Shown: piece by piece, positions 4,129-19,460 of the stretch | Position numbering within the stretch: position 1 is the first letter of the stretch | Layout of the letters: the number at the start of each line of letters is the position of its first letter | NCBI GenBank assembly: GCA_027334715.1 | Contig: DAHWUG010000001.1 | Location: 277,993-341,992 of the forward strand | Reading direction: 5' to 3' | Source of the DNA: Nanobdellota archaeon | Lineage (GTDB): Archaea; Nanobdellota; Nanobdellia; Pacearchaeales; GW2011-AR1 | DNA: 64,000 nt | Position numbers and translations under genes: made by a program | The notes under the pieces: generated by a model | Databases searched by the model: none | Seen by the model: the letters and a program-made list of their open reading frames with translations, nothing else | Told to the model about the DNA's origin: nothing

Positions 4129-4863
4129 TTATTTTTTCAGCCATTCATAACCTTTTTTATCAATTTCATTGGCTAAGTCTATACCATCTTCTTCTCTAAT
4201 AACTTTTCCATTAATCATTACAAAAACCTTATCAGGTTTTAAATATTTTAATATGCGGTTATAATGGGTTATTATAAGAAGGGTCATTCCAGTAGATTTA
4301 ATTATCTTATTAATGGCATTTGCTACTTCCTTTAAAGCATCAACATCTGTTCCAGAGTCTACTTCATCTAATATAGCTACTTTCGGATTCAGAACAAGAA
4401 GCTGCAGTATTTCTGATTTCTTCTTCTCTCCACCCGAAAATCCCCTATTTAGATAGCGCGAGAGAAATTCTCTTTGGATTTTCAGTTCGTCCGCCTTTTT
4501 CTCCAGCAATTCCTGAAATTCAAGGAAAGAAAGTTTTTTTTCATGAAGAGAATTGTAAGCCTGCCTAAAAAAACTTGAGATTTTCACGCCTTCTATTTCA
4601 ACAGGATTCTGGAAACTTAAAAAAATCCCTAATTTAGAACGCTCATCCACAGATAATTTAGTTATATTTTTACCATTTAGCAAAATTTCACCAGAATCAA
4701 CATTAAACTTTTGGTCTCCCATAAGAACATGGGCCAAAGTTGATTTTCCGCTGCCATTTGGTCCCATCAAAGCGTGAACTTTTCCTTTTTCCAATTTCAT
4801 GTTAATGCCTTTAAGGATTTCTTTTCCTTTAAAATCAACATGAAGATTTTTTATTTCAATCAT
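4129..4863 (-). CDS. sufC: Fe-S cluster assembly ATPase SufC
   Basis: Walker A GPNGSGKST, ABC signature LSGGEKKK, Walker B LDEVDSG; suf operon context. Confidence 0.9.
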   Translation of the reverse strand: MIEIKNLHVDFKGKEILKGINMKLEKGKVHALMGPNGSGKSTLAHVLMGDQKFNVDSGEILLNGKNITKLSVDERSKLGIFLSFQNPVEIEGVKISSFFRQAYNSLHEKKLSFLEFQELLEKKADELKIQREFLSRYLNRGFSGGEKKKSEILQLLVLNPKVAILDEVDSGTDVDALKEVANAINKIIKSTGMTLLIITHYNRILKYLKPDKVFVMINGKVIREEDGIDLANEIDKKGYEWLKK

Positions 4864-4864
4864 T

Positions 4865-5239
4865 TTATTTCAATGCCTCTTTTACAGCTTCAAAAGAAAG
4901 CAGGGCGCATTTAATCCTTGAAGGAGTGAGCTTTGACTTAAGCAGTGAAAGAACATCCTCCCCCTTCATTTTTTTAACATCCGAGACATTAGCTCCTTTA
5001 ATCTTGTCGGTCAGTAAAGAAGCAGTCACCATTGAAATAACACATCCACTTCCGCCGAATTTTATATCATCTATTTTTCCGCCCTTAACAATTATTTGCA
5101 CAGTTATTTCATCTCCGCATATGGAATTATATGAGGTATGCTTATGGCTTGGATTTTTCAGCTCTCCAAAGTTAGATGGGCTTTTGTAAAGCTCAAGTAT
5201 TTCTTCCCTGTACATGTCATCAACTGCTTCGTGCGGCAT
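4865..5239 (-). CDS. sufU: Fe-S cluster scaffold / sulfur-transfer protein, SufU/IscU-like
   Basis: NifU-N-like Cys pattern (CGDEI..., GGSGCVIS..., IKCA); between sufC and sufS. Confidence 0.75.
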   Translation of the reverse strand: MPHEAVDDMYREEILELYKSPSNFGELKNPSHKHTSYNSICGDEITVQIIVKGGKIDDIKFGGSGCVISMVTASLLTDKIKGANVSDVKKMKGEDVLSLLKSKLTPSRIKCALLSFEAVKEALK

Positions 5240-5240
5240 T

Positions 5241-5528
5241 TTAATTTAACTCAATTCTCATTTTTTCATAAACAAGATTTCCAAGACTATCAAAAACAAG
5301 ATAAGAACAACTTGCACCTAAACCATCTAATTCAGGACAATCATTATAATCTCTTTCGTCTTCCATAAGACCTGAATCTGCAATGAATTTAGCGCCATCT
5401 AAAGTAACAGATTCTCCGAAAACCTCTGCTCTTCTGTCTAATGAATGATGTTTAATTATTGTATACTTTTTGATTTTATTAGCTAACTCATTAGGGTTTC
5501 TTGCATTAATACCAATTCTGTTCATCAT
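5241..5528 (-). CDS. hypothetical protein (95 aa) embedded in the suf operon
   Basis: ORF track; no recognisable motif; 2-nt spacing from neighbours. Confidence 0.3.
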   Translation of the reverse strand: MMNRIGINARNPNELANKIKKYTIIKHHSLDRRAEVFGESVTLDGAKFIADSGLMEDERDYNDCPELDGLGASCSYLVFDSLGNLVYEKMRIELN

Positions 5529-6781
5529 TTGAATTTCTCCTGAATTTCCCTTAAGGAATCAACAAGGGCATCAATGTCTTCCAGCGTGTTGTAAAAATAA
5601 AAGCTTGCCCTGCAAACTCCACCATTTGCTTTAATCACAGACATCAAAGGCATTGCACAACAATGACCTGCACGTATTGCAATCTTTTTTTCATTCAGCA
5701 TTTCTGCAATATCATGAGGATGTATGGAATCCAATGTAAAAGATACAACAGGCACTTTCTCCCCTGAATTTGGATGGTATGTCTTGATTCCTTTAACCTC
5801 ATTTAATCTCTTTAATGCATATTTTAGCAAAAAAGCCTCCCACCCCGTTATATTTTCAATGCCTATTTTTTTTATGTAATTTATTGCTTCTGCAAAACCA
5901 ACTGCTCCTGCAATATTCTGCGTTCCAGCCTCGAATTTCTCAGGGGTTTTTGCCCAGCTTGCATCATTAAATGTTACTTTCTCAATCATTCCGCCCCCAA
6001 ACATGAAAGGGGAGAGTTTCTCAAGCAATTCTTTTTTGCCGTAAAGAACTCCTATTCCGTTTGGTCCCATCATTTTATGGCCTGAAAACGCAAGAAAATC
6101 ACAATCAAGATGCTTTACATCAATGGGAATATGCTGAATTGCCTGAGCTGCATCAATTACTGTTATTGCCCCTTTTTCTCTTGCTAATCTGGTTATTAGC
6201 TTAACATTGTTAATGGTTCCTAACACATTAGACGCGTAAGCAATGCTAACAATAGCTGTTTTATCACTTAGTTTTGAATTAAAGTCTTTCATATCCAGAA
6301 CAAAATCTTTTGTTATTTTTACAAACTTTAACTTAAACCCATTCCTCTTGCACAATTCCTGCCATGGAACAAGATTTGAATGATGCTCCATTTCTGTCAA
6401 AACTATTTCATCCTTTCCTTTGGGTATAATTTTTGATATCACATATGCTAGCAGATTAATTGATTCTGTCGTGTTTCTTGTGAATACTATTTCACCAGAA
6501 TTTGCTCCAATAAAGTTAGCAATAACAGTTCTTGTCTGGTCATATCTTTTCATTGCCCTGTTTGCAAGGGAATAAACTCCGCGGCCAACATTTGCATTGT
6601 CCTTTTCATAGAAGTTTTTTACAGCATTTATAACGCTTGCAGGCTTCTGGGTTGTTGCTGCATTGTCCAGATAAACAAGCCCAAGATTGTGGCTGAAAAT
6701 TGGAAAATCCTTCTTTATCTGCTTTGCAATTTCGTTTGTTATTTTCATTTTACACAACGCTGTTCTCAATCTCCAATTCAA
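5525..6781 (-). CDS. sufS: cysteine desulfurase SufS (class V aminotransferase)
   Basis: HHSNLVPWQ; PLP-Lys region SGHKMMGPNGIGVLYGK; active-site Cys loop RAGHCCA. Confidence 0.9.
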   Translation of the reverse strand: MNWRLRTALCKMKITNEIAKQIKKDFPIFSHNLGLVYLDNAATTQKPASVINAVKNFYEKDNANVGRGVYSLANRAMKRYDQTRTVIANFIGANSGEIVFTRNTTESINLLAYVISKIIPKGKDEIVLTEMEHHSNLVPWQELCKRNGFKLKFVKITKDFVLDMKDFNSKLSDKTAIVSIAYASNVLGTINNVKLITRLAREKGAITVIDAAQAIQHIPIDVKHLDCDFLAFSGHKMMGPNGIGVLYGKKELLEKLSPFMFGGGMIEKVTFNDASWAKTPEKFEAGTQNIAGAVGFAEAINYIKKIGIENITGWEAFLLKYALKRLNEVKGIKTYHPNSGEKVPVVSFTLDSIHPHDIAEMLNEKKIAIRAGHCCAMPLMSVIKANGGVCRASFYFYNTLEDIDALVDSLREIQEKFK

Positions 6782-9356
6782 TCAATCTGTTTAATTCAAC
6801 TGCATATTCCAATGGAAGCTCTTTTATTAATGGCTCTATGAAGCCAGAGACAATCATTTTTGTTGCCTCACGCTCTGGCAATCCGCGTGACATAAGATAA
6901 AAAAGCTGCTCCTCCCCTATTTTTCCAACAGCTGCTTCATGGGAGACTTCAACATCATTTTCATCAACTTCCATGCTCGGGAAGGTTGTTGCCTTGCTTT
7001 TGTTGTCAAGCATTAAACCATCACAACGAACGCTTGACTTTGATCCCGTGCAGCCGTTCTTTATTTTTACCAAACCCCTGTAAGCTGTTGTTCCGCCATT
7101 CATGCATATGCTTTTGCTTATTATATGCGAGCTTGTATTCTTAGCCATGTGATATGCCTTGCATCCTGTATCTTGGTACTGGCCTTTGTTTGCATATGCA
7201 ATTCCCACATAATCTGTCTTTGCGCCAGTCTCTAAAAGAACAGAAGAAGGATACAGCATTGTAATTCTTGAATTATGGACTATTAATCCATTAGCAACAA
7301 AATTATGATATCCTTCAACTTCAATATCAAAGGTTGGTTTTATCCCTCTTTCCTCAATTTTATTAATCCTAGAAAACCCTATTTCTTCATTAACTTTACT
7401 TCTAAAATTAAGCCCTCTTGAAGAAAAATAACCTCTTGTTGTTTTTATTTTACCAAGTTTATCTTTTTTGGCCATACACTTTAAAGGTAAAAACTTAACA
7501 TTCTTGCCATCAAATAATATTCTCCAAGAATCTTTGAGATTTACCTCTTTTCCAAGAATCATGGATTTTCTTGCTTTTCCATGGGTAAATACATTAGAAC
7601 CCCACAATCCTACTTGAATTCCAAGAAGTTTGACATCTTCAAGTAACTTTTTATTGATGCTAGTTAAGTATACAGAATGACTAGAAATGTGCCCATCAGA
7701 ATCAATATACCCTGCTAAGAAGGAAAGAATTTGACTTTCTGGTAAAGTAAAAACCCATTCCGGAATTTTTTTTGTATCTGCATTACCACTAAAACCAATT
7801 TTAGTAAACAACTGGCATAAGGTCTTAGAATTTATTATAATGTATCTCTCTTTTTTTTCTGTAACAGTATAATCAAATAATCTTTTAAGTAAGATTATTA
7901 ATTTGTCTCTATAATCTTCTCTTTCATGCGTTGCTATGTTTATTTTATTGGTATTTAAATCAATGTGTCCGTCACCAATAATTAATCCCATTAGCCACAT
8001 AAAGTCTTCATTTGTTTTCTGCGGATAATTTATCTTTTTATTATATAAATAGGAGATATTCATTTTAAATGTAGAATATTGATTTTTGCTATTAACTTCT
8101 TCTCCAATGCTAATCTTCGGTAAAATATGTGGTTTTCCTTTATGGGGAATTTTTTTTACTATTCCTATTAAATCTCCAATTTTTAATTCTTCAAGTGGTT
8201 TCCAGATAAATCTGAAAAATCCCTTTTTATGATGTGGGCTATTTTTCTCTCTTATTAATGTCAAGAATGGATGATTTGAAGAGGCTTCTATACTTCTCCC
8301 ACCTACAATAATTTTGTAAACTTTTTTACTTCCACTAAATATTTTGTTTTTAACTTTAGATGTTTTTAATCTATTAGTAAGTTCATCCCAAACAAAAATG
8401 ACATCTCCTTTTTTTATATATTGCATGTTTATAAGGCCCTTTGAATTTGTGAAAATCTTTGAATCTCCTGTAAGGCAACCTGTATTTCCATTAACCCACT
8501 CCATAACCCCATTTTCATACACAACAGCCCTTTTTGTATTCAAATTATAAACATTTTTGCTCCAGTTTTCAATGCTTGAATAACGGACTCTTGCGTTTTT
8601 TAGCACATGAATCTCAACTCCGCCTGCGTGAAGAGAATTTTCTGAATAAACAGGTGCAGAACATCCTTCAATATAATGAATCTCACTGCCTTCATCTGCG
8701 ATTATCAAAGTGTGCTCGAATTGTCCTCCTTTTCGTGCATTCATCCTAAAATAAGCCTGAAGAGGGAGGTCAACTTTCACACCTTTCGGCACGTAAATAA
8801 AAGTCCCTCCTGACCAAAAGGCTCCGTGAAGAGCTGCGAACTTATGAAGGCCCGGATTTATGCATGTTGTCATGAAATATTTTTTAAATAATTCTGGATA
8901 CTGCTGCAAACCCTGGTCACAGTCAAGGAAAATAACCCCTTTTTCTTCCCATTGTTTCTTCAGTTTATGATAAATGACTTCACTTTCATATTGCGCCCCA
9001 ACACCTGCCAGAGCTTCCCTTTCAGCTTTTGGAATTCCAAGCTTTTCGTAGGTTTCCTTGATTTCTGCAGGAACATCATCCCATGAAGTTGCATTTTTTT
9101 TTGCATCGGGTTTGATAAAATATGAGATTTCGTTCAAATTCAGATCAGCCAAGCTTGGCCCGAAATTTGGCATTGGTATCTCATTGAATAATTTTAATGC
9201 TTCAAGCCTTTTATGCAGCATCCATTCTGGTTCTTTTTTATCTTTGGATATCTTGCGTACAAGCTCCTCGCTTATTCCTGTTGTTGCCTTGAACTTCAAT
9301 TTTTCAGGATCACTGTGGTCATAGATTTCCCGATTTGTATTTATTTGATTACCCAT
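6750..9356 (-). CDS. sufB: Fe-S cluster assembly protein SufB interrupted by a 402-aa intein (host about 466 aa)
   Basis: SufB blocks flank an insertion that begins CLTGDSKI and ends VHN before extein S. Confidence 0.9.
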   Translation of the reverse strand: MGNQINTNREIYDHSDPEKLKFKATTGISEELVRKISKDKKEPEWMLHKRLEALKLFNEIPMPNFGPSLADLNLNEISYFIKPDAKKNATSWDDVPAEIKETYEKLGIPKAEREALAGVGAQYESEVIYHKLKKQWEEKGVIFLDCDQGLQQYPELFKKYFMTTCINPGLHKFAALHGAFWSGGTFIYVPKGVKVDLPLQAYFRMNARKGGQFEHTLIIADEGSEIHYIEGCSAPVYSENSLHAGGVEIHVLKNARVRYSSIENWSKNVYNLNTKRAVVYENGVMEWVNGNTGCLTGDSKIFTNSKGLINMQYIKKGDVIFVWDELTNRLKTSKVKNKIFSGSKKVYKIIVGGRSIEASSNHPFLTLIREKNSPHHKKGFFRFIWKPLEELKIGDLIGIVKKIPHKGKPHILPKISIGEEVNSKNQYSTFKMNISYLYNKKINYPQKTNEDFMWLMGLIIGDGHIDLNTNKINIATHEREDYRDKLIILLKRLFDYTVTEKKERYIIINSKTLCQLFTKIGFSGNADTKKIPEWVFTLPESQILSFLAGYIDSDGHISSHSVYLTSINKKLLEDVKLLGIQVGLWGSNVFTHGKARKSMILGKEVNLKDSWRILFDGKNVKFLPLKCMAKKDKLGKIKTTRGYFSSRGLNFRSKVNEEIGFSRINKIEERGIKPTFDIEVEGYHNFVANGLIVHNSRITMLYPSSVLLETGAKTDYVGIAYANKGQYQDTGCKAYHMAKNTSSHIISKSICMNGGTTAYRGLVKIKNGCTGSKSSVRCDGLMLDNKSKATTFPSMEVDENDVEVSHEAAVGKIGEEQLFYLMSRGLPEREATKMIVSGFIEPLIKELPLEYAVELNRLIELEIENSVV
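7272..8477 (-). mobile_element. intein with LAGLIDADG homing-endonuclease domain inside sufB (residues 294-695)
   Basis: Block A CLTGDSKIF; LAGLIDADG motifs LMGLIIGDGHI and FLAGYIDSDGHI; C-terminal ...GLIVHN|S; boundaries computed from residue counts. Confidence 0.8.
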
Positions 9357-11639: not shown

Positions 11640-11730
11640 TTAATATCTTTAATAACCTCTTAAAATTAAGTTAATTTGTCAGGAAATAAAGGTTTTTAAT
11701 ATTTGTGAAGTTGCTATCTACATCTTAAAA

Positions 11731-11812
11731 GCCCGGATGGCACAATGGTACTGCGCCACGCTCGAAACGTGGTTTCCGAAAGGATTTCTAGGTTCGATTC
11801 CTAGTCCGGGCG
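11731..11812 (+). tRNA. tRNA-Ser (anticodon CGA)
   Basis: 7-bp acceptor GCCCGGA/TCCGGGC; anticodon stem CCACG/CGTGG with loop CUCGAAA; 15-nt variable arm; T-arm CTAGG-TTCGATT-CCTAG; TATA-like element about 30 nt upstream. Confidence 0.75.
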
Positions 11813-11866
11813 AATTTTAAAAAACTGTTAAAAAGATTTATATACAATTCTTATTTTATACATAAA

Positions 11867-12238
11867 ATGAATGGGACAAAAGAAGTTCCTATTGGAGTAA
11901 AAATAATTTCTATTATTTACTACCTTGGAACTGTTGTTGGAGTTATTCTTGGATTATTCTTCATTATTCCAGTAGGGGTCTTTTTTGAAGGGATAATTCT
12001 TTTTGGATTAGGAATTCTTAGTTTTTTTGTTGCAAGAGGTTTATTGAAATTAAGACCATGGGCTAGAGTTCTAGCAATAATACTTAGTTGTTTAGGCATT
12101 CTTATGGCAGTTTTCTCAATTGCTTATTTAGGTGGAATTTTAGGAAATATTTTTACTATTATTTTTAGTTTACTATTTGAACTTCTTACAGGGGGATATC
12201 TTTTGTTTAATAATAATGTAAAAAAGGCTTTTTCTTAA
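11867..12238 (+). CDS. small polytopic membrane protein (123 aa)
   Basis: ORF track; 3-4 TM helices; lies between tRNA-Ser and a duplicated copy of the tRNA 3' end. Confidence 0.4.
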   Translation: MNGTKEVPIGVKIISIIYYLGTVVGVILGLFFIIPVGVFFEGIILFGLGILSFFVARGLLKLRPWARVLAIILSCLGILMAVFSIAYLGGILGNIFTIIFSLLFELLTGGYLLFNNNVKKAFS

Positions 12239-12274
12239 ACAATAATTCTTAGGGAGTCTAACTTTTTATTCTAT

Positions 12275-12295
12275 GCTTGGTCCGGGCGATTTTTT
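12275..12295 (+). repeat. direct repeat of the tRNA-Ser 3' end (putative att remnant)
   Basis: ggtccgggcgatttttt matches agtccgggcgaatttt at 11803-11818. Confidence 0.4.
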
Positions 12296-12344
12296 AAAAA
12301 AAGACAACAATAATTATTATAAATAATATTTTTATTTCCTTTTC

Positions 12345-13079
12345 ATGTTTGGACTTGCAGATAAACTATATTCTTTGAGGAAATGCAGAGAAGGTTATGT
12401 TGAACCTGAAATAGACTGGAGACCAGAGATTGTTTCCTATAACAGAAAATCTACTAGCTGGTTTTGTTTCGTATCTAACAATATTTCTAAAAGACCTTTT
12501 TTAAGAAATAGAATTATCCCAAAAGAGGGGGATGTTTTTATTTATACTATTTCTTCTTTAAATATTATTAAACCAAATCCAGAACAATCAGTTAGGAAAT
12601 TGCAGGATATTTATGAAGATTCTATGAACAGAATGTATAAAGAATTAGTAGATGGCAAAACATTGAATGTGCTTGGCGTAAGCTTAGGAAATGTTTTATC
12701 TATCAGAGCTTCTAGTGATATCAATTCAAGCATTGAAAGAATTATTTCTATTGTTGGTGGAGGAAGGCTGGGGTTATCTGCTTGGGATAGCATCTTAACA
12801 GGAAGTATAGCCAGAAAATCAGGTTGTCAATCTAGAACAGAGTATGAAGAAAAAATGTCTCTTTTTAGCCCTTTAAATTATATTAGTGGTATTAAAGCAG
12901 GTAAGATTTCTATTCGTTTGGGAACAAGAGATTTATTAATTCCATTTAAACAAGGACAAGAACTATCTTGGGCATTTGTTGAACAAGCTAAAAAAACTGG
13001 AACAAAAATAGATTACAAGGAGTATAAAGGAGCAGACCATTGTTCATCAATAATACTTTCTGCCTTAGATAAAATCTAA
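12345..13079 (+). CDS. alpha/beta-hydrolase fold protein
   Basis: GxSxG nucleophile elbow in LGVSLGNV; 244 aa. Confidence 0.4.
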   Translation: MFGLADKLYSLRKCREGYVEPEIDWRPEIVSYNRKSTSWFCFVSNNISKRPFLRNRIIPKEGDVFIYTISSLNIIKPNPEQSVRKLQDIYEDSMNRMYKELVDGKTLNVLGVSLGNVLSIRASSDINSSIERIISIVGGGRLGLSAWDSILTGSIARKSGCQSRTEYEEKMSLFSPLNYISGIKAGKISIRLGTRDLLIPFKQGQELSWAFVEQAKKTGTKIDYKEYKGADHCSSIILSALDKI

Positions 13080-13131
13080 TTAATGCTTTCTAGCAATAAG
13101 TTTTTTAGGGCTTGAGGTTTTATAAGAAAAG

Positions 13132-13202
13132 TGCGCCGGCCGAGAATTGAACTCGGGTCTGAACCTTGGCAAGGTCCTATTCTACCACTTAACTACCAGC
13201 GC
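13132..13202 (-). tRNA. tRNA-Gly (anticodon GCC)
   Basis: Reverse complement gives GCGCTGG acceptor, anticodon stem GGACC/GGTTC with loop TTGCCAA, T-arm CCGAG-TTCAATT-CTCGG, discriminator A. Confidence 0.8.
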
Positions 13203-13328
13203 ATTTAATTAGATAAAAAGAAGATGTTTTTAAAATTTTAGAAGATACAAAATTATTTATTTTGGTTACTGCCTTTCTTACAGAAAACTTTATAAACTAT
13301 AGCTTCTATAGCTGCTATAGAATAAAAA

Positions 13329-13538
13329 ATGGAAATATCAACAATACAATTAAGCAAGGAGACAAAGAAGAAGATTTCATCCTTCGGCTTAAAGGGAGAA
13401 AGCTATGATGACATAATCAACAGGATTTACTCTTTTGCTGTAAAGGAACAATTAAGGCAATTTTTAATGTCTACAGAAGGGTACATTCCGATTGAAGACG
13501 CTATTAAAGATGCTAAACAAAAATGGCCAAAGTCCTGA
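13329..13538 (+). CDS. small antitoxin-like protein (69 aa)
   Basis: Overlaps the downstream RelE-like ORF by 16 nt; small basic N-terminus. Confidence 0.35.
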   Translation: MEISTIQLSKETKKKISSFGLKGESYDDIINRIYSFAVKEQLRQFLMSTEGYIPIEDAIKDAKQKWPKS

Positions 13539-13867
13539 TTCTGGAATCTTTAAAAAATGAGGTGTTAAAAAAACTTAAGGGAGAAGCAGTAGAGGCATTT
13601 GAACTAATGCTTTCTTTGAAAAATAGCCCGCAAAAAGGAAAACTGTTAGGTAATGTTGGAAATCTTGTTACTAAGGAGATTAAGTACAAAAGCTTTAGAT
13701 TTTATTTCATTACAGACGGGCATATTCTTAAAATAATGGATGAGTCAAATTTGATTGACCTATTAATAACTTTTGTCAGAATGTCTGACAAAAAATCACA
13801 GCAAAAAACAATTAATGAGATTAAGAATGTTCTGAAGCATTTTGGTCCGGAAGGATTCAAAAAATAA
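13523..13867 (+). CDS. RelE/ParE-like toxin family protein
   Basis: C-terminal pattern KSFRFYFITDGHILKIM resembles the RelE/ParE core; overlapping gene pair. Confidence 0.4.
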   Translation: MAKVLILESLKNEVLKKLKGEAVEAFELMLSLKNSPQKGKLLGNVGNLVTKEIKYKSFRFYFITDGHILKIMDESNLIDLLITFVRMSDKKSQQKTINEIKNVLKHFGPEGFKK

Positions 13868-13969
13868 AAAATATGGTCCTAGCAAAGGTTGAATTACCTC
13901 TTTAATTTTAATAGACTGGTGGTATTAATAAACGCTAATATTTAAATAGTTGTTACACTATTCTATTAT

Positions 13970-14929
13970 ATGAAGAGAACAGTAGATGGCAGATTTATTG
14001 AAAAAAGAGTTATTATTGATAAAAATGATTTAAAGGAAATAATGAATTCTATTAAAAAAAAGAATAACTTCACTTGGGATGAAATAGCAAACAAGATTGG
14101 CGTAAATCCACAAACAGTTAAACATGACTGGCTTGTTGAAAATAGAACATTACCTTTATCATTTTTTAAGAAATTACTTATTTTATCCAAGACAAACAAA
14201 GATTATAAATTTGAAGTAATTGACCCTTTTTGGGGTCAAAAAATATCTCATGGAAAGCAAAAACTAAAGAATATTCGTTTTCCGAACAAAAGCGAAACAA
14301 GTTTTGCTGAATTTTATGGAATCCTGCTTGGCGATGGGTGCATAAACTCTGATTTGAAGAGCCTTTCTATAACTGGCGATAAATATCTGGATTATTATTA
14401 CTATAATAATTATCTTCCTAGATTAATAAGAAGAACGTTTAAAATCAGTCCAAAAATTTATCAAAATAAGGATGAAAAAGTAATCCGTTGCGTTGTTTAT
14501 AGCAAATCAGTAGATAAATACATGATTGATGCTGGTTTTCCTGTAGGAATTAAGTATGGAAAAGATTGTTCGATTCCTATTTATATATCCAACAACGAAA
14601 AAAACTTAGCTGCCTGCATTAGGGGCTTAATGGATACAGACGGGTCTTTATCAGCTCACCCTAATGTTAAAGTAATGATTCATTTATCTATTACTATTGA
14701 ATCCCTGCGTAAATCAGTCTTTGATGGTCTAAAAAAATTAGGTATAAGCGGGGGGATGTTTGACAAAGGAATAATGATTTATGGGACAGAAAAAATAGAT
14801 AAATTTCATAAGGTCATAGGATTTTCTAATTTTAAGAACAATTACAAATATGCACAGTTTAAAAGAACAGGAAGGGTCCCCTCTTCAAAGGAAGTAGAAA
14901 TGTTTATAAGAAAGAAAGCTGGGATTTAA
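13970..14929 (+). CDS. free-standing LAGLIDADG-family endonuclease-like protein with N-terminal HTH-like domain
   Basis: Two dodecapeptide motifs FYGILLGDGCI and IRGLMDTDGSL; 319 aa; ends 6 nt before tRNA-Val. Confidence 0.7.
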   Translation: MKRTVDGRFIEKRVIIDKNDLKEIMNSIKKKNNFTWDEIANKIGVNPQTVKHDWLVENRTLPLSFFKKLLILSKTNKDYKFEVIDPFWGQKISHGKQKLKNIRFPNKSETSFAEFYGILLGDGCINSDLKSLSITGDKYLDYYYYNNYLPRLIRRTFKISPKIYQNKDEKVIRCVVYSKSVDKYMIDAGFPVGIKYGKDCSIPIYISNNEKNLAACIRGLMDTDGSLSAHPNVKVMIHLSITIESLRKSVFDGLKKLGISGGMFDKGIMIYGTEKIDKFHKVIGFSNFKNNYKYAQFKRTGRVPSSKEVEMFIRKKAGI

Positions 14930-14934
14930 TTATC

Positions 14935-15006
14935 GGCCCATTAGTCTAATGGTTAGAACGGCTCGTTTACACCGAGCAGGCACAGGTCCGATTCCTGTAT
15001 GGGCCA
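14935..15006 (+). tRNA. tRNA-Val (anticodon UAC)
   Basis: Acceptor GGCCCAT/ATGGGCC; anticodon stem GCTCG/CGAGC with loop TTTACAC; T-arm ACAGG-TCCGATT-CCTGT; one C-A mismatch in the D-stem. Confidence 0.7.
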
Positions 15007-15078
15007 CTCTTTTATTTATTAACTTAAAAATGGTAACATCTAATAAAGTTTATAAAGTAGCAATTTATCCCACTTTTC

Positions 15079-15234
15079 ATGAAAGTTAAGCTAAGCATCT
15101 CTATGGAAGAAGAGCTGGACAAGAGGCTCGAGGACAAAGTGAAAGACAGCATTTTCAGGAACAAAAGCCATTTAATAGAATACGCCGTGAAATCATTCTT
15201 GAAAAAGGAAAAAATGGAGGCAAGAGCAAAATGA
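15079..15234 (+). CDS. ribbon-helix-helix (CopG/Arc/MetJ-like) small DNA-binding protein, 51 aa, not in ORF track
   Basis: MKVKLSISMEEELDKRLEDKVKDSIFRNKSHLIEYAVKSFL has the beta-strand plus two-helix pattern; its stop overlaps the start of the next gene (ATGA). Confidence 0.55.
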   Translation: MKVKLSISMEEELDKRLEDKVKDSIFRNKSHLIEYAVKSFLKKEKMEARAK

Positions 15235-17558
15235 GCGCTAAAGAAGACGCGTGGGCATTCAAGCAAAATAATCTAATAGAGGGATATGGAAATAAACTCT
15301 CTTCTATTGAAGGTCATATAATTCCTGTTCCAGAACCAAAAAGACTTCAACCAGCAACACCTGCTGATTTAGAGTACAGAGACGGAGATATTCTTCAAAT
15401 ATATGAACTTGGGGAAAAACTTGCAAACACAGAAAATGGCGGACAGGGAACTATTTACAGAGCAAAGAGAAAATCAGATGGCCTTGATACTGTTGTAAAG
15501 GTTTATGCAGCAGCAGAAACAGGAAACTGGGATGATATTTTTACTGAAGAGAAAAGAGCAGGGCGTGAAATAAGATTCCTTGAAAGAGCAAACAGAGAAG
15601 GAGTTCCTGGAGTTCCAAGAATAGTCCAGCATGGGGTTACAGGTTCTTTCATAAAGACGCCTGTTGCTGTCTTTGATTTCATTCCTGGAAAATCTCTGGA
15701 AGAGGAAGTTCTTGATCAAAGTTATTCCCCTTCAGCAGAAAATGTTCTAGGACTTTTCTCAGGTTTGGTTCCTGCCTTGGAATATGCTCATCATTCAAAT
15801 GGTGTAAAGCCTGTTGTTCACAGAGATATCAATCCTGGAAACATAAAAGTCAATGGGCATCCTGTTCTTATGGATTGGGCTTCTTCTACACCAACTAGTG
15901 GAAAAACCCAGTTAAGAACACATATGTTCACAGAATATTTCACAGCTCCAGAAGTTGTTGGAGGAAGTGCATTTGATGGAAGAGCTGATATCTATAGCAT
16001 GGGAAAAGTCCTCCAGTTCATGCTTTTAGGGCAGGTTTTCAAAGATGCAGATGGAAATCCCAAAACCAGCGATTTTGACAGATTAAATATTCCAAAAGAA
16101 GTTGCACAAATACTTGCAAAAGCAACACAAGAAAATCCAGATAAAAGATACAAGACAGTAAGGGAATTTTATCATGCTTTGGAATCTGTTTTCCAGACAG
16201 GAAGAAGCATGCCAACAAGAAATGAACTGCTAAAACATGAGACTGCTAAACCTGGAGATTGCATTGTTAAGATTAATGAAGATGGATCTGTTCATATTGG
16301 CTATTTCGAACCAGAACTTCCAGATAAACCTCACTGTGGAAACACCTTTGAGGGAAAAACTGTCTATGATATTTTTAGAGCCATAAATACTTATCTTTTA
16401 AATATTGGTTCTGACGAGGCAACTCTTGCGTATGCAAAGCATGTTGCACAGACAAATCCTTTAGTAAGAGGTACATTGGAAGGCAAAAGGACTTTGGAAG
16501 ACGTTGCAAGAGAGAAGAAACCTCGCTTTGATATTACTGATTTATTAGAAAAAATACCTTTTGTAAAATCATCTCGTTATCCTGAACCAGAAAGAGATTT
16601 AGAAGAAGCAAAAGACAAGTATCTTGCTAAAAGAAAACAGTTATATGAAATTTTTGGAGTGAAAGAAATGAGGGATTTGAATGTTGGTTCTGTAAGTTTA
16701 AGTGTTGGAGGCAGCATTGTTGGTGTCGCCGCAGGGACTTTTTCTGCTTTTAACTTAGGAATGTATGACACTCTTTCAGGAGCTTTGTTTGCTATGGGCA
16801 CTACAGTAATAGGGGCGATTTTAGGTCTAAACATTGGAGAATATATAGTAAACAAAAAACTACAAAAAAAGGCGCGTGAAGTTGATTCATGGATTAGGGA
16901 AGCAAAAAGAGCGCAAGGATTAGAAGGGAAAGTTGGAGAAGGAGAAATAAAGTTGACGGAGGAAGAAATAACAAGAATAAAAGATGATGTCGTGATTTAT
17001 AGAGCAGGAATACCTTTTTTAGGGGCTTTGATTGATTGTGGTTATACTTTTCTCACAAAAAATTATGGTGTTGCTTTAGGCGCATTACTTTCGTTACCTT
17101 TAATAGGAGAAACTGTAGGTTTTCTTGCTACAAAATATCTCAAGAATAAAAAGCTCAAACAAAAACGCCTTACTGCGGGGTTGGATGAAGACGGGATGAA
17201 AGCGTATGCTGGATTAATCACTGGAGACTCTAAAAATCTACCTTCAAGAACTCCAAAACTTGAAAAAATATTCTCTGTATTAAAACTTAAGAAAAGTTTC
17301 TTGAAACAAAAATTTAAAAATTCTAAAGCTAAAGTTAAATTAGATAATTATCGTGTAATAATAAGTGCTCTTCCTTCAGAAGAATTAAGGGCAAAAAATA
17401 TATATGATAATATAAGACAGTATTATGAGATTAATACTGTTTTTTCAAATTTCCCGGACCACTTTCAGCCATTTCAAGCAGGAGTAATCCTAAGCGACGA
17501 AACAAAAATGCCTGATGTAAGAAGAATCAATGGAGTTGGCGGTGTAGCAATTAATTAA
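15231..17558 (+). CDS. protein-kinase-like (PKL) phosphotransferase domain fused to a glycine-zipper multi-TM domain and basic C-terminal tail
   Basis: Gly-rich loop GQGTIYRAK, VVKVY lysine, catalytic loop VHRDINPGNIKV (HxDxxxxN), LMDW (DFG-equivalent), FTAPE; residues about 480-640 hydrophobic and GxxxG-rich; 775 aa. Confidence 0.6.
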   Translation: MSAKEDAWAFKQNNLIEGYGNKLSSIEGHIIPVPEPKRLQPATPADLEYRDGDILQIYELGEKLANTENGGQGTIYRAKRKSDGLDTVVKVYAAAETGNWDDIFTEEKRAGREIRFLERANREGVPGVPRIVQHGVTGSFIKTPVAVFDFIPGKSLEEEVLDQSYSPSAENVLGLFSGLVPALEYAHHSNGVKPVVHRDINPGNIKVNGHPVLMDWASSTPTSGKTQLRTHMFTEYFTAPEVVGGSAFDGRADIYSMGKVLQFMLLGQVFKDADGNPKTSDFDRLNIPKEVAQILAKATQENPDKRYKTVREFYHALESVFQTGRSMPTRNELLKHETAKPGDCIVKINEDGSVHIGYFEPELPDKPHCGNTFEGKTVYDIFRAINTYLLNIGSDEATLAYAKHVAQTNPLVRGTLEGKRTLEDVAREKKPRFDITDLLEKIPFVKSSRYPEPERDLEEAKDKYLAKRKQLYEIFGVKEMRDLNVGSVSLSVGGSIVGVAAGTFSAFNLGMYDTLSGALFAMGTTVIGAILGLNIGEYIVNKKLQKKAREVDSWIREAKRAQGLEGKVGEGEIKLTEEEITRIKDDVVIYRAGIPFLGALIDCGYTFLTKNYGVALGALLSLPLIGETVGFLATKYLKNKKLKQKRLTAGLDEDGMKAYAGLITGDSKNLPSRTPKLEKIFSVLKLKKSFLKQKFKNSKAKVKLDNYRVIISALPSEELRAKNIYDNIRQYYEINTVFSNFPDHFQPFQAGVILSDETKMPDVRRINGVGGVAIN

Positions 17559-17609
17559 ACTCAAAACCTTTATAAAAACAAATAAACTTTCATAACTGAA
17601 ACACAAAAA

Positions 17610-19460
17610 ATGGCAGACAAAACAGACAACAAACGAAAAACTAAAGAGAATAATGAGGAAATCCAGGAAATCCCCGGAATGAATCTTGACACAAATTACA
17701 CTTCTAAGAAACCACTTCTTCCTGAAGGAACAGAAAAGCTTCAGAAAGAAATGGAGAAAACAAAAAAAGAATTTGACAAGATAAAGAATGCAATTGTCAA
17801 GAAATATTCCTTTGTTCAGGCAATAGGAATCCTTGCTCCGCAGGCTGTAAAGCTTTTTGTCGAGGACGAAATAGGAGAAAACATTCCCCCTGAAGAATTG
17901 CAGAAATTGCAGAAGAAAAATCACATCTATATAATTATTCCAGAAGAAAAATTCAAGGAAATACCAAAAATAAAGAAGGAAATAATCGAGGAAGTTGAAA
18001 AAATAAAGAAAGACGTCTGGATTTACATAAAAACTCCTGTTGATATCTGGGAAGCATGCCTTGATTCAAAGTTTGACCTTGTTTCTGCGGTAGGAATGTC
18101 ATACCCTCTTCATGACACTGGAATTTTGGAAGGATTAAGAGTTGCTGAGATACACAAAGCAATGGTTTTGCAAAAGTTTGACAAATATATTGTTTCATAT
18201 GTAATTGCAGGAAGCATGGTAAGGGGAGATGCTGTAAAAGAATCAGATGTTGATGCTTTTGTCATAATAAATGACACTGATGTAAAGAGGATGCCAAGGC
18301 TGGAACTTAAGGAAAGACTGAGAAGCATGATTTTGCAATTTGTTGGAGAAGCAACAGCAATGGCAGGCGCAAAGAAAAATATTCTTAATGTACAGTCTTA
18401 TCTCTTGACTGATTTTTGGGAATCTGTAAAAGATGCTCACCCTGTCATGTTCACTTTCATAAGAGATGGAGTTCCATTGTACGACAGGGGAACATTCCTT
18501 CCCTGGAAAGCACTTTTGAAAATGGGAAGGCTGAAACCTTCTCCAGAAGCAATAGACATGTTTATGTCAATGGGGGACAAGTCCGTCAAAAGAGCAAAGG
18601 CAACTCTCATTGATATTCTTGTACAGGATGTTTACTGGAGCATATTGACTCCAAGCCAGGCATTACTGATGCTTTATGGGCTTGCTCCGCCTACACCAAA
18701 GCAGACAGCTGCTGAGATGAAAAGAATTTTTGTTGAAAAAGAAAAAATGCTTGAGCCAAGATACATAAAGATACTTGAAAAAATAATCCATGCATACAAG
18801 GATTTCGAGCATGAAAAGCTGAAAGAAGTCAAAGGTGCAGAGATTGACAAAATGCTTGCTGATACAGAAGATTATCTGAAAAGACTGCAGGAATTAAGGA
18901 AGCAGATAGAAAAAAGTTCACAGGAAAAAACAATAGACCAGATTTATACAGATATTTTCAACCTTTTGGATGCAATATTCGGAAAAAAGAAGCAGACAGA
19001 GCTTGTTGATGATTTTGAAAAACTTGTTGCCAGGGGGAAATTCACACAGAATCATTTTAGAATTCTGAAAGATGTTATTGGGGCAAGAATTGAATTCAAA
19101 AAAGGAAAATTGGATTCCAGAAAAGTTGATGAAGCAAGAAAAAATGCTTCAATTCTTATAAATGAATTGATAGACTATTCGCAAAGAGCAGATCTTATGA
19201 CAATGGAAAAGGGGAGAATGAGAATAAGATATCAGAAGGACGGAAAGCCCGCAAATGCAGAAATCCTCCATTGCAATGGAACCAGCTTCCTTTTTGAAGG
19301 AGAAATAGTTAAGAAAATTACAGATAAAATAGAGGTTTCCAGCATGAAAGAGGTGTCTGAATGTGTTGCACACCAGAAACTTTCAAAATCACTGGAAATA
19401 AATCCAAAAATTTTCGAGCTTGTAAAAAAAGAACTTGGGGATTTTGAGATTGTGCTATAA
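17610..19460 (+). CDS. Pol-beta-superfamily nucleotidyltransferase domain protein (616 aa) with Lys/Glu-rich N-terminus and long helical C-terminus
   Basis: GSMVRGDAVKESDVDAFVII = GS-x9-DxD nucleotidyltransferase motif; the rest is helical/coiled-coil. Confidence 0.5.
   Translation: MADKTDNKRKTKENNEEIQEIPGMNLDTNYTSKKPLLPEGTEKLQKEMEKTKKEFDKIKNAIVKKYSFVQAIGILAPQAVKLFVEDEIGENIPPEELQKLQKKNHIYIIIPEEKFKEIPKIKKEIIEEVEKIKKDVWIYIKTPVDIWEACLDSKFDLVSAVGMSYPLHDTGILEGLRVAEIHKAMVLQKFDKYIVSYVIAGSMVRGDAVKESDVDAFVIINDTDVKRMPRLELKERLRSMILQFVGEATAMAGAKKNILNVQSYLLTDFWESVKDAHPVMFTFIRDGVPLYDRGTFLPWKALLKMGRLKPSPEAIDMFMSMGDKSVKRAKATLIDILVQDVYWSILTPSQALLMLYGLAPPTPKQTAAEMKRIFVEKEKMLEPRYIKILEKIIHAYKDFEHEKLKEVKGAEIDKMLADTEDYLKRLQELRKQIEKSSQEKTIDQIYTDIFNLLDAIFGKKKQTELVDDFEKLVARGKFTQNHFRILKDVIGARIEFKKGKLDSRKVDEARKNASILINELIDYSQRADLMTMEKGRMRIRYQKDGKPANAEILHCNGTSFLFEGEIVKKITDKIEVSSMKEVSECVAHQKLSKSLEINPKIFELVKKELGDFEIVL

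What the first reader, a model, noticed from the sequence alone, without database searches (positions are those of the whole stretch)
7272..8477. LAGLIDADG intein in SufB, plus a second free-standing LAGLIDADG protein 5 kb away
SufB is interrupted after ...NGNTG by a 402-aa element with canonical splicing blocks (CLTGDSKI ... VHN|S) and two LAGLIDADG dodecapeptides, while the flanking exteins reconstruct a normal ~466-aa SufB. A second, free-standing double-motif LAGLIDADG protein with an N-terminal HTH-like domain sits at 13970-14929, abutting tRNA-Val. Two homing-endonuclease-family genes in 8 kb is unusual for a streamlined genome.
Basis: partly seen in the sequence, partly recalled or inferred. 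Interest (0 to 1): 0.5.

Follow-up and report, generated by a model that had tools for sequence, protein, structure and literature searches.

The report
SufB intein plus tRNA-hugging homing endonuclease
A tiny archaeon's iron-sulfur assembly gene carries an ordinary self-splicing protein insert. The nearby "free-standing" endonuclease gene belongs to a large, apparently undescribed family of selfish genes that sit directly against the front end of tRNA genes.

Summary
SufB (6750-9356, minus strand) carries a 402-aa intein at 7272-8477. It has all the splicing blocks and two LAGLIDADG motifs. Removing it leaves a 466-aa SufB that matches 120 intein-less relatives and a collinear relative, L190, which lacks the insert exactly there. 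This is a routine new member of a known kind. It occupies a different site from the M. tuberculosis SufB intein, 62 residues downstream.

The second gene (13970-14929) is an HTH plus double-LAGLIDADG endonuclease with its catalytic residues kept. Its contact with tRNA-Val is not incidental. The family has at least 1,139 clusters at 50% identity, in DPANN archaea and CPR bacteria. In 59 of 79 related loci a strict test finds a same-strand tRNA at the end of the reading frame, against 9 of 2,000 random positions. The frame often ends on the tRNA's own TAG, at nucleotides 8-10 or 13-15. Endonuclease clades track tRNA type (Val, Gln/Glu, Ser).

The gene is patchy. None of 80 syntenic metagenome loci carries it, and L190 has the tRNA-Val without it. 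I infer a free-standing homing endonuclease that targets the 5' flank of tRNA genes. I found no description of this in the literature. Two such genes within 8 kb is not unusual for this lineage.

The parts
6750..9356 (-). sufB precursor gene (868 aa plus stop). It lies in a suf cluster: sufC 4129-4863, sufU/NifU_N 4865-5239, a 95-aa ORF, and sufS 5525-6781.
   Evidence: TIGR01980 scores 661 bits.
8478..9356 (-). N-extein (residues 1-293), ending ...EWVNGNTG.
   Evidence: Collinear with L190 at 80% nt identity, ending at window 8479.
7272..8477 (-). Intein, 402 aa, class 1. Catalytic residues: C1, block B S66-x-x-H69, block F D384 and H391, block G H401-N402, +1 Ser. GC content is 28.6% against 39-41% in the exteins.
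7962..8003 (-). Intein LAGLIDADG motif 1 (FMWLMGLIIGDGHI, intein aa 159-172). The acidic residue is retained.
7686..7730 (-). Intein LAGLIDADG motif 2 (ILSFLAGYIDSDGHI, intein aa 250-264). The acidic residue is retained.
6753..7271 (-). C-extein (173 aa), starting SRITMLYPSS.
13970..14929 (+). Free-standing HTH plus double-LAGLIDADG endonuclease gene (319 aa). GC content is 30.4%.
14021..14188 (+). N-terminal helix-turn-helix domain (residues about 18-73), joined to the core by a low-confidence linker (residues 86-105).
   Evidence: AF2 model with mean pLDDT 93. Weak HipB/XRE similarity. CPR relatives carry Pfam HTH_3.
14303..14344 (+). LAGLIDADG motif 1 (FAEFYGILLGDGCI). D122 is invariant in 88 family members.
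14606..14650 (+). LAGLIDADG motif 2 (LAACIRGLMDTDGSL). D222 is invariant and D224 is conserved in at least 90% of members.
14897..14910 (+). BRE/TATA-like element GAAATGTTTATAAG inside the last codons of the endonuclease ORF (E-M-F-I-R), at -38..-25 from the tRNA. It is a putative tRNA-Val promoter.
   Evidence: Read directly from the sequence. The same motif class sits at about -41..-27 upstream of 13 endonuclease-less tRNA-Val alleles. Function is inferred.
14935..15007 (+). tRNA-Val(TAC), 5 nt downstream of the endonuclease stop codon.
   Evidence: ARAGORN. Rfam RF00005 at 62 bits.

Best explanation
There are two independent selfish elements of the LAGLIDADG_3 type in a Pacearchaeota/Nanoarchaeota (DPANN) genome.

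(A) sufB carries a class-1 intein between the residues equivalent to E. coli SufB G322 and S323. The gene is translated as an 868-aa precursor. C1 attacks the preceding peptide bond, Ser+1 takes over the N-extein, N402 cyclises with help from H401 and H391, and a 466-aa SufB is released. The embedded double-LAGLIDADG domain would cut intein-less sufB alleles at ...AATGGAAATACAGG|AGCAAGGTAACAATG..., and the intein is then copied in by repair. The anatomy and the empty allele are shown. Splicing and cleavage are inferred.

(B) The 319-aa protein is a monomeric LAGLIDADG endonuclease with an extra N-terminal HTH domain. It belongs to a large DPANN/CPR family whose genes sit directly on the 5' side of a tRNA gene, on the same strand. 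The reading frame ends within a few nucleotides of the tRNA, or inside it. Each endonuclease clade is tied to one tRNA species.

I infer a free-standing homing endonuclease gene. Its target would be the junction between the 5' flank and the first nucleotides of a particular tRNA gene. Insertion would split that target, which would make carriers immune. The essential tRNA would protect the element from deletion. The tRNA would stay expressed either from a BRE/TATA-like element embedded in the last codons (present here at -38..-25) or by co-transcription followed by RNase P cleavage.

Shown: the fold, the conserved catalytic residues, the tRNA linkage, the clade-to-tRNA correspondence, the patchy distribution and the empty sites. 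Inferred: cleavage, the identity of the target, the homing process and the mode of tRNA expression.
For: (A) The coordinates and splicing blocks are confirmed.
- The extein aligns without a gap to E. coli SufB.
- The 120 closest SufB homologues (71-89% identity) are intein-less and read ...EWVNGNTGS(K/R)(V/I)TMLYP....
- The collinear relative L190 loses homology exactly at window 7262/8479.
- Thirteen related inteins occupy the same site in other DPANN-like SufBs. One is in a sufC-sufB-sufD-sufS operon. Three are mini-inteins with the endonuclease domain deleted.
- The intein GC content is 28.6%, against 39-41% for the exteins.

(B) D122, D222, G121, G123 and K195 are invariant and D224 is at least 90% conserved across 88 sequences.
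- The AF2 model has mean pLDDT 93.3. Foldseek top hits are the TliVMA intein endonuclease domain, I-Tsp061I, I-DmoI and WhiA.
- There are at least 573 loci in GTDB species representatives and 1,139 50%-identity clusters at E<=1e-30.
- ARAGORN in default mode finds a same-strand tRNA at -40..+60 from the stop in 35 of 80 loci, against 0.19 expected (P about 3e-72). In intron mode the count is 58 of 80.
- An independent acceptor-stem and T-arm test finds one in 59 of 79 loci, against 9 of 2,000 random positions. The offset is -15 in 23 loci and -10 in 13 loci, so the stop codon is tRNA nt 13-15 or U8-A9-G10.
- Endonuclease clusters match tRNA type: Val, Gln/Glu, Gly, and Ser in CPR.
- Two MAGs carry two copies each, at different tRNAs.
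- Of 80 metagenome loci syntenic through the 616-aa neighbour gene, about 60 hold a tRNA-Val(TAC) and none holds the endonuclease. A positive control worked.
- The closest collinear relative has the tRNA-Val without the endonuclease.
- Broken or truncated copies exist, for example L046, L041 and L073.
- Rfam finds no group I intron or other RNA around the gene.
Against: (A) No evidence contradicts it. The only soft points are that TIGR01445 misses its cutoff by 0.1 bit and that block B has Ser instead of Thr.

(B) There is no biochemical evidence of cleavage.
- No allele pair with and without the endonuclease was found within one species, so the exact insertion point and target are unknown.
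- In the closest relative the tRNA-Val is inverted relative to the window. The difference is therefore not a clean insertion.
- Across distant carriers, endonuclease identity roughly tracks the identity of a neighbouring host gene (52 vs 51%, 44 vs 46.5%, 43 vs 41%). This would also fit long vertical residence.
- Most copies are intact and full length, which is more than a purely decaying parasite would predict.
- A TATA-like box at the canonical distance is clear in the Val clade but not in the Gln clade.
Confidence: 0.75

Rival explanations
1. The HTH-LAGLIDADG protein is a domesticated DNA-binding factor, analogous to WhiA, that regulates or protects its adjacent tRNA gene. On this view it is not a mobile endonuclease.
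For: WhiA is among the Foldseek hits (8dy9_I, 3hyi), and it has the same two building blocks (LAGLIDADG plus HTH). Most family members are intact. Endonuclease divergence is similar to that of a neighbouring host gene in several loci. The C-terminal helix overlaps tRNA promoter-like DNA.
Against: The catalytic Asp residues of both motifs and a conserved Lys are retained family-wide, whereas WhiA has lost them (established knowledge, Kaiser et al. 2009). The domain order is reversed, and no WhiA Pfam family matched. The distribution is patchy: 0 of 80 syntenic loci and the closest relative lack it. Degraded copies exist, and some genomes hold multiple copies at different tRNAs.
Confidence: 0.1
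2. The tRNA adjacency is a by-product. tRNA genes are integration hot spots for larger mobile elements, and the endonuclease is merely cargo near the attachment site.
For: tRNA genes are classical attachment sites (established knowledge). The window segment between tRNA-Gly and the 616-aa gene differs in content from L190: small ORFs, the endonuclease and a kinase are present only in the window.
Against: Only the endonuclease is shared between loci; none of the other window neighbours recurs. The spacing is fixed at the nucleotide level, at the 5' end of the tRNA. Integrases instead target the 3' half and leave a duplicated tRNA fragment, and no such repeat is present. No integrase is nearby. 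No family members appear in viral contigs, only distant LAGLIDADG domains.
Confidence: 0.07
3. The 402-aa SufB insert is a native lineage-specific SufB domain, or an inactive intein relic that is never removed.
For: Several homologous intein-bearing sufB genes in other MAGs look frameshifted or truncated (P0005, P0007, P0010, P0001). This shows that these inserts can decay.
Against: All nucleophiles and assisting residues are intact here. The ORF is uninterrupted. 120 close SufBs lack the insert. The insert interrupts the conserved beta-helix core between E. coli G322 and S323, where an unspliced 46-kDa domain should be incompatible with function. [quoted passage not shown] 2006, cited in PMC8529194).
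Confidence: 0.03

Closest known systems
Mycobacterium tuberculosis SufB (Pps1) intein
   Same: The host protein is the same. Both are class-1 inteins starting with Cys1 and ending His-Asn, and both carry a LAGLIDADG endonuclease domain. Both are large (359 vs 402 aa). Splicing is required for SufBCD assembly (PMC8891592, PMC8529194).
   Different: The insertion site differs. In Mtu the N-extein is 252 aa, the C-extein 235 aa, +1 is Cys and position -5 is His. That places it at HY(V/I)EG|C, before the E. coli C254 equivalent. The intein here is 62 residues downstream, at GNTG|S, between E. coli G322 and S323. The +1 residue here is Ser, so the Cys1-Cys+1 disulfide redox switch proposed for Mtu cannot operate. 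The intein search returned no mycobacterial hit.
Archaeal LAGLIDADG_3 (PF14528) inteins, e.g. the Thermococcus litoralis VMA intein and PI-PkoII
   Same: They share the HINT splicing domain plus an inserted double-LAGLIDADG domain. These are the best PDB sequence and fold matches.
   Different: They sit in different host genes. Sequence identity is only about 20-30%.
Archaeal intron-encoded monomeric LAGLIDADG enzymes (I-DmoI, I-Tsp061I)
   Same: The free-standing protein's core has the same pseudo-dimeric fold with two motifs, each carrying a catalytic acidic residue. TM-score normalised by target length is 0.64-0.70.
   Different: Those enzymes are encoded inside rRNA introns and have no HTH domain. 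The gene here is not in an intron or an intein. It carries an extra N-terminal HTH domain of about 85 aa, and it sits at the 5' edge of tRNA genes.
Phage T4 SegB, a free-standing endonuclease in the tRNA gene cluster (PMC2330249)
   Same: It is a free-standing homing endonuclease whose gene lies among tRNA genes. It promotes inheritance of its own tRNA-region allele by cleaving the rival genome.
   Different: SegB is a GIY-YIG enzyme encoded by a phage. It is not fused to a particular tRNA's 5' end and does not share a stop codon with a tRNA. The family here is LAGLIDADG, cellular (DPANN and CPR), and positioned at nucleotide resolution.
WhiA (DUF199), a domesticated LAGLIDADG plus HTH transcription factor
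   Same: It combines a LAGLIDADG scaffold with an HTH domain in a protein of about 310 aa, and it is a structural neighbour.
   Different: WhiA has lost its catalytic residues, carries its HTH at the C-terminus, and is vertically conserved in Gram-positive bacteria. Here the catalytic residues are kept, the HTH is N-terminal, and the distribution is patchy.

Membership tests
Intein (class 1, HINT domain) | An in-frame insertion in a conserved host protein. Removing it restores a contiguous, normal host sequence. | tested here: met
   The 466-aa extein aligns without a gap to E. coli SufB and to 120 intein-less homologues. Collinear L190 lacks exactly 7272-8477.
Intein (class 1, HINT domain) | Block A nucleophile (Cys/Ser1), block B TxxH, block F Asp/His, block G His-Asn, and a +1 Cys/Ser/Thr. 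| tested here: met
   The residues are C1, S66-S-N-H69 (Ser in place of Thr), D384 and H391, H401-N402, and +1 Ser. They align to the Ssp DnaB mini-intein 1MI8.
Intein (class 1, HINT domain) | Curated HMM thresholds. | tested here: met
   PF14890 scores 58.5 bits (cutoff 35.8) and TIGR01443 scores 36.2 bits (cutoff 15.6). TIGR01445 scores 24.4 bits, 0.1 bit below its cutoff of 24.5.
Intein (class 1, HINT domain) | Autocatalytic protein splicing. | not testable with these tools
   This needs expression of the precursor and detection of the products (98 kDa giving 52 and 46 kDa).
Known SufB intein allele of M. tuberculosis | The same insertion point in SufB. | tested here: not met
   The Mtu junction (252 aa | 359 aa | 235 aa, H-5, C+1; PMC8891592) maps to HYIEG|CSAP, which is E. 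coli C254. The intein here lies 62 residues downstream, at G322|S323. The sites of the M. leprae, M. gastri and Ferroplasma alleles could not be retrieved.
LAGLIDADG homing endonuclease (monomeric, double motif): the free-standing protein | Two LAGLIDADG helices, each ending in a catalytic Asp/Glu. | tested here: met
   The motifs are GILLGD122G and GLMD222TD224G. D122 and D222 are invariant and D224 is at least 90% conserved in 88 sequences.
LAGLIDADG homing endonuclease (monomeric, double motif): the free-standing protein | A pseudo-symmetric alpha-beta-beta-alpha-beta-beta-alpha x2 fold. | tested here: met
   The AF2 model has mean pLDDT 93.3. Foldseek gives probability 1.0 to I-Tsp061I, I-DmoI, I-SceI and the VMA intein endonuclease domains.
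LAGLIDADG homing endonuclease (monomeric, double motif): the free-standing protein | Encoded within a self-splicing intron or an intein (the usual context in archaea). | tested here: not met
   Rfam finds no group I or II intron. There are no HINT blocks. The gene is a separate ORF with its own start, between a 114-aa ORF and tRNA-Val. It is therefore free-standing.
LAGLIDADG homing endonuclease (monomeric, double motif): the free-standing protein | Sporadic presence, with empty target sites in close relatives. | tested here: met
   None of 80 syntenic metagenome loci carries it, and about 60 of them hold a tRNA-Val(TAC). Collinear L190 and L191 also lack it.
LAGLIDADG homing endonuclease (monomeric, double motif): the free-standing protein | Site-specific double-strand cleavage of the empty allele, followed by gene conversion. 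| not testable with these tools
   This needs in vitro cleavage of endonuclease-less tRNA-Val alleles, or population data.
WhiA-type domesticated LAGLIDADG | Loss of catalytic acidic residues, a C-terminal HTH, and WhiA Pfam domains. | tested here: not met
   The catalytic residues are kept, the HTH is N-terminal, and no WhiA family matched at E<=0.01.

The most novel reading that the evidence does not exclude
The 319-aa protein represents an undescribed class of free-standing LAGLIDADG homing elements, with more than 1,000 50%-identity clusters shared between DPANN archaea and CPR bacteria. These elements home to the 5' boundary of specific tRNA genes. They borrow the tRNA's invariant U8-A9-G10 or D-loop TAG as their stop codon. 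They may carry or overlap the tRNA's promoter, so the essential tRNA becomes dependent on the element. That would be a deletion-proof 'promoter-capture' strategy, distinct from hiding inside an intron or an intein. RNase P cleavage of a co-transcript would then remove the stop codon and could throttle endonuclease synthesis.
Probability: 0.45. Interest if true: 0.75.

Novelty: new variant of a known kind. Interest (0 to 1): 0.55.

Why it matters
The intein alone adds a new SufB insertion site. With Ser at +1 it cannot form the Cys1-Cys+1 disulfide proposed as the redox switch in the M. tuberculosis SufB intein. That makes it a useful comparison for the 'inteins as sensors' debate, but it is otherwise routine.

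The tRNA-flanking endonuclease family matters more. It would be a third way for LAGLIDADG genes to persist, besides introns and inteins: nesting against an essential RNA gene. It links DPANN archaea and CPR bacteria through a shared mobile element. It may help explain rearrangements and fast divergence around tRNA genes in these genomes. It also offers a large natural library of compact, monomeric, HTH-assisted meganucleases with predictable, tRNA-defined targets. Finally, the family affects annotation, because the ORFs overlap tRNA genes and many of the linked tRNAs carry introns that standard tools miss.

Tried and rejected
- An exact look-up of the 868-aa precursor found nothing.
- The Topilina 2015 and Saves 2001 papers are not held. 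The M. leprae, M. gastri and Ferroplasma SufB insertion sites therefore could not be compared. Only the Mtu site was derived, from extein lengths, H-5 and C+1.
- Viral contigs hold only distant LAGLIDADG domains and no family members, so a virus-borne origin was dropped.
- A repeat search around the endonuclease gave no target-site duplication or tRNA-fragment repeat, so an integrase-type insertion was rejected.
- Rfam found no intron or ribozyme near the gene.
- Rfam's tRNA model at the gathering threshold missed most intron-bearing tRNAs next to Val-clade endonucleases. I therefore wrote an acceptor-stem and T-arm detector with a random-position control.
- I tested whether tRNA-Val alleles linked to the endonuclease cluster apart from alleles without it. 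They do not, because tRNA-Val stems vary widely in this group. Co-transfer of the tRNA with the endonuclease is therefore unproven.
- The window's other neighbours (DUF7557, the 114-aa ORF, RHH, the kinase) do not recur near other family members.
- Cluster look-ups gave no organism names for the intein-bearing SufBs.
Full report
**Observation**

The ORF at 6750..9356 (minus strand) encodes 868 aa. The stretch CLTGDSKI...GLIVHN covers residues 294-695, which is window 7272-8477, exactly the reported coordinates. Pfam reports a split SUFBD_core (258 bits), Intein_splicing (58.5 bits, cutoff 35.8) and LAGLIDADG_3 (51.5 bits, cutoff 22.5). NCBIfam reports TIGR01980 sufB at 661 bits in two pieces and intein_Cterm at 36.2 bits (cutoff 15.6). 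Its intein_Nterm model scores 24.4 bits against a cutoff of 24.5.

The N- and C-terminal splicing regions align to the Ssp DnaB mini-intein 1MI8, and the middle aligns to the endonuclease domains of the TliVMA intein, PI-PfuI and PI-PkoII. The catalytic inventory is complete:
- Block A: C1.
- Block B: S66-S-N-H69, with Ser in place of the usual Thr.
- Block F: D384 and H391.
- Block G: H401-N402, followed by +1 Ser.
- Endonuclease motifs: GLIIGDGH and AGYIDSDGH.

**The exteins make a normal SufB**

The 466-aa joined extein aligns over its whole length to E. coli SufB (5AWF, E=1.8e-97). The junction falls between E. coli G322 and S323, with no gap. The 120 best database homologues are 71-89% identical, come from Pacearchaeota and Nanoarchaeota, and are 461-485 aa long. 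All lack an intein domain, and the four I read through the junction (P0161, P0162, P0164, P0182) run ...EWVNGNTGS(K/R)(V/I)TMLYP... across it.

One of them (P0161, 89% identity) lies on a contig, L190, that is collinear with window 3.7-24 kb at 75-89% nucleotide identity. Homology stops at window 7262 and resumes at 8479, so the intein is a clean insertion relative to that allele. The intein has 28.6% GC against 39-41% for the exteins. The 'native domain' alternative is excluded.

**Relatives of the intein**

Thirteen SufB proteins from metagenomes and MAGs carry a related intein at the same site, G-N-x-G|C...HN|S, at 49-76% identity for the larger ones. One source names its organism Nanoarchaeota.
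- Three are mini-inteins of 145-163 aa in which the endonuclease domain is precisely missing (P0011, P0014, P0029).
- P0029 sits in a sufC-sufB-sufD-sufS operon.
- Several gene calls look frameshifted or truncated (P0001, P0005, P0007, P0010).

This spread of full, mini and broken forms is what the homing cycle predicts. The next closest inteins are in PFOR-beta, Mrp/ParA ATPases, dCTP deaminase and DnaB.

**Comparison with known SufB inteins**

The M. tuberculosis SufB intein has a 252-aa N-extein, a 235-aa C-extein, Cys at +1 and His at -5 (PMC8891592). In the window's SufB the motif HYIEG|CSAP has His at -5, and exactly 235 residues run from that Cys to the C-terminus (62 + 173). That Cys is E. 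coli C254. The Mtu site is therefore 62 residues upstream of the site used here.

The sites of the M. leprae, M. gastri and Ferroplasma alleles could not be retrieved. Because +1 is Ser here, the Cys1-Cys+1 disulfide switch described for Mtu cannot apply. I judge the intein a new member of a known kind at a site distinct from the best-studied one.

**The second gene: what it is**

The ORF at 13970..14929 (319 aa) hits LAGLIDADG_3 and, weakly, the HipB/XRE HTH. An AlphaFold2 model built on 88 homologues has mean pLDDT 93.3. It shows:
- an N-terminal helical HTH domain (about residues 18-73);
- a flexible linker (residues 86-105);
- a double alpha-beta-beta-alpha-beta-beta-alpha core (residues 110-300);
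- a C-terminal helix (residues 306-317).

The top Foldseek PDB hits are the TliVMA intein endonuclease domain, the archaeal intron enzymes I-Tsp061I and I-DmoI, and WhiA. In the family alignment G121, D122, G123, K195, G219, D222 and G225 are invariant, and D224 is at least 90% conserved. The catalytic apparatus is therefore kept down to about 25% identity.

The protein is only 24% identical over 174 aa to the SufB intein's endonuclease domain, so the two are not recent copies of each other. Rfam finds nothing but tRNAs in 11-16 kb, so the gene is not intron-borne.

**The second gene: the tRNA rule**

The family is large. These come from:
- DPANN archaea: Woese-, Pace-, Nano-, Aenigmat-, Nanohalo-, Micr- and Iainarchaeota;
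- Hadarchaeota;
- CPR bacteria: Saccharibacteria and Parcubacteria.

A search of 1.84 billion representative proteins found 1,139 50%-identity clusters at E<=1e-30.

In the 80 best loci, a tRNA gene on the same strand lies at the end of the reading frame far more often than chance allows:

| Detection method | Loci with a same-strand tRNA at the ORF end | Control |
|---|---|---|
| ARAGORN default (start -40..+60 from the stop) | 35 of 80 | 0.19 expected from the tRNA density in the same loci; binomial P about 3e-72 |
| ARAGORN intron mode | 58 of 80 | 0.30 expected |
| Own detector: perfect 7-bp acceptor stem, T-arm, U8, D-loop GG | 59 of 79 | 9 of 2,000 random positions |

Most of the remaining loci show a tRNA 5' end by eye, for example GGGCC..GTCTAGTGG followed by an intron.

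The dominant offsets are -15 (23 loci) and -10 (13 loci). At these offsets the ORF's stop codon is the tRNA's own TAG, at nucleotides 13-15 or at U8-A9-G10. In the window the stop codon lies 5 nt before the tRNA.

Endonuclease sequence clusters match tRNA species:
- The query's cluster (39-57% identity) goes with tRNA-Val(TAC).
- A second large cluster goes with tRNA-Gln and tRNA-Glu.
- A small cluster goes with an intron-bearing tRNA-Gly.
- The CPR cluster goes with tRNA-Ser.

Two MAGs carry two copies each, at different tRNAs (L005 and L038; L035 and L049).

**The second gene: mobility evidence**

I used the conserved 616-aa neighbour gene (window 17610-19457) as a synteny anchor and fetched 80 metagenome loci with 52-79% identity. 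About 60 contain a tRNA-Val(TAC) (51 by ARAGORN default mode, 10 more in intron mode). None contains the endonuclease, and a positive control on the window worked. The closest collinear relative, L190/L191, has tRNA-Val(TAC) at the same locus without the endonuclease.

Some copies are broken or truncated, for example L046, L041 and L073. The gene's GC content is 30.4% against 35.3% for the window. No family member appears in viral contigs. No flanking repeats or integrase are present, and the other window neighbours do not recur with the family. Together these results fit a small, autonomous, sporadically distributed endonuclease gene and not cargo of a larger element.

Three caveats apply:
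- Relative to L190 the window's tRNA-Val is inverted and only 78% identical, while tRNA-Gly is 72/72 identical and tRNA-Ser is 89% identical. The difference is therefore not a simple insertion.
- tRNA-Val stems vary so much in this group that co-transfer of the tRNA with the endonuclease cannot be shown.
- Across distant carriers, endonuclease identity is similar to the neighbour gene's identity, which allows long residence.

**How it probably works (inferred)**

A LAGLIDADG enzyme recognises about 20 bp. The strict 5'-edge position and the clade-to-tRNA correspondence suggest that the target spans the leader and the first nucleotides of a given tRNA gene. On this model, insertion would separate the two half-sites and make the carrier immune. 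The essential, conserved tRNA would guarantee a conserved target and would penalise imprecise deletion. The HTH domain probably extends the DNA contacts.

tRNA expression could continue in two ways:
- **Embedded promoter.** In the window a BRE/TATA-like GAAATGTTTATAAG lies at -38..-25 from the tRNA, inside codons E-M-F-I-R of the confidently modelled C-terminal helix. The same motif class lies at about -41..-27 in 13 endonuclease-less tRNA-Val alleles and in the Val-clade carriers L004-L007.
- **Co-transcription.** The tRNA could be transcribed from the endonuclease promoter and released by RNase P. Where the ORF overlaps the tRNA, this cleavage would also remove the stop codon.

The Gln clade shows no TATA box at the canonical distance, so the mode may differ between clades.

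**Novelty**

Six full-text searches and four targeted readings found no description of LAGLIDADG genes abutting tRNA 5' ends. The readings covered:
- archaeal group I introns, all of which are in rRNA (PMC6125680);
- CPR rRNA insertions (PMC11270868);
- Patescibacteria tRNA group I introns (PMC13011429);
- inteins (PMC4760082).

The nearest concept is phage T4 SegB, a GIY-YIG endonuclease in the tRNA cluster (PMC2330249). Absence from this library is not proof of novelty.

**Verdict**

The finding as written is correct but ordinary with respect to the intein. The claim that two such genes are unusual in a streamlined genome is not supported.

Noticed in passing
window 11700-17600 vs L190 6000-7900: Between the conserved SOD gene and the 616-aa gene, the window and its collinear relative L190 differ strongly. 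The window alone has a 123-aa ORF, a 244-aa ORF, an overlapping DUF7557/114-aa small-gene pair, the endonuclease and a 775-aa Ser/Thr kinase. L190 has DUF7670 and an AlaE-like gene instead. tRNA-Val is inverted between the two, while tRNA-Gly is 100% identical. This tRNA cluster is a local rearrangement hot spot.
   Followed up: partly
L003, L008-L024, L030-L036, L051, L058, L062, L065 (just downstream of the endonuclease ORFs): Many endonuclease-linked tRNAs carry introns, often soon after the D-loop and sometimes 100-200 nt long. ARAGORN in default mode and Rfam at the gathering threshold miss them.
   Followed up: partly
window 17610-19457 (+): A conserved 616-aa DPANN protein has no strong Pfam hit. 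It carries an invariant G-S-x-V-R-G...S-D-V-D-V motif and weak Polbeta/NTP_transf_2 hits in L190. At least 568 relatives occur in metagenomes. It usually lies next to tRNA-Val(TAC).
   Followed up: no
window 7263-7271 vs L190 9898-9906: The +1 Ser codon is TCA in the intein-bearing allele but AGC in the empty allele, and substitutions cluster in the 9 nt after the insertion point. This may be a co-conversion tract or changes that give immunity to the endonuclease.
   Followed up: no
P0001, P0005, P0007, P0010 (other MAGs and metagenomes): Several sufB genes with this intein are split or truncated by apparent frameshifts inside the intein. These could be assembly errors or genuinely dead sufB alleles.
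   Followed up: no
window 4129-9356 (-): The suf cluster is sufB-sufS-(95-aa ORF)-sufU(NifU_N)-sufC. No sufD appears in the cluster, and the same order holds in L190. P0029's operon does have sufD.
   Followed up: no
L029 about 6870-6968 and L074 about 6720-6760: In a small endonuclease subcluster the ORF end overlaps the 3' end of a tRNA on the opposite strand instead of a same-strand 5' end. This would be a second type of tRNA contact.
   Followed up: no
window 13329-13867 (+): Two small overlapping ORFs (a 69-aa DUF7557 and a 114-aa ORF, overlapping by 16 nt) lie immediately upstream of the endonuclease. The layout resembles a toxin-antitoxin pair. They are absent from L190 and from other loci of the endonuclease family.
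   Followed up: partly
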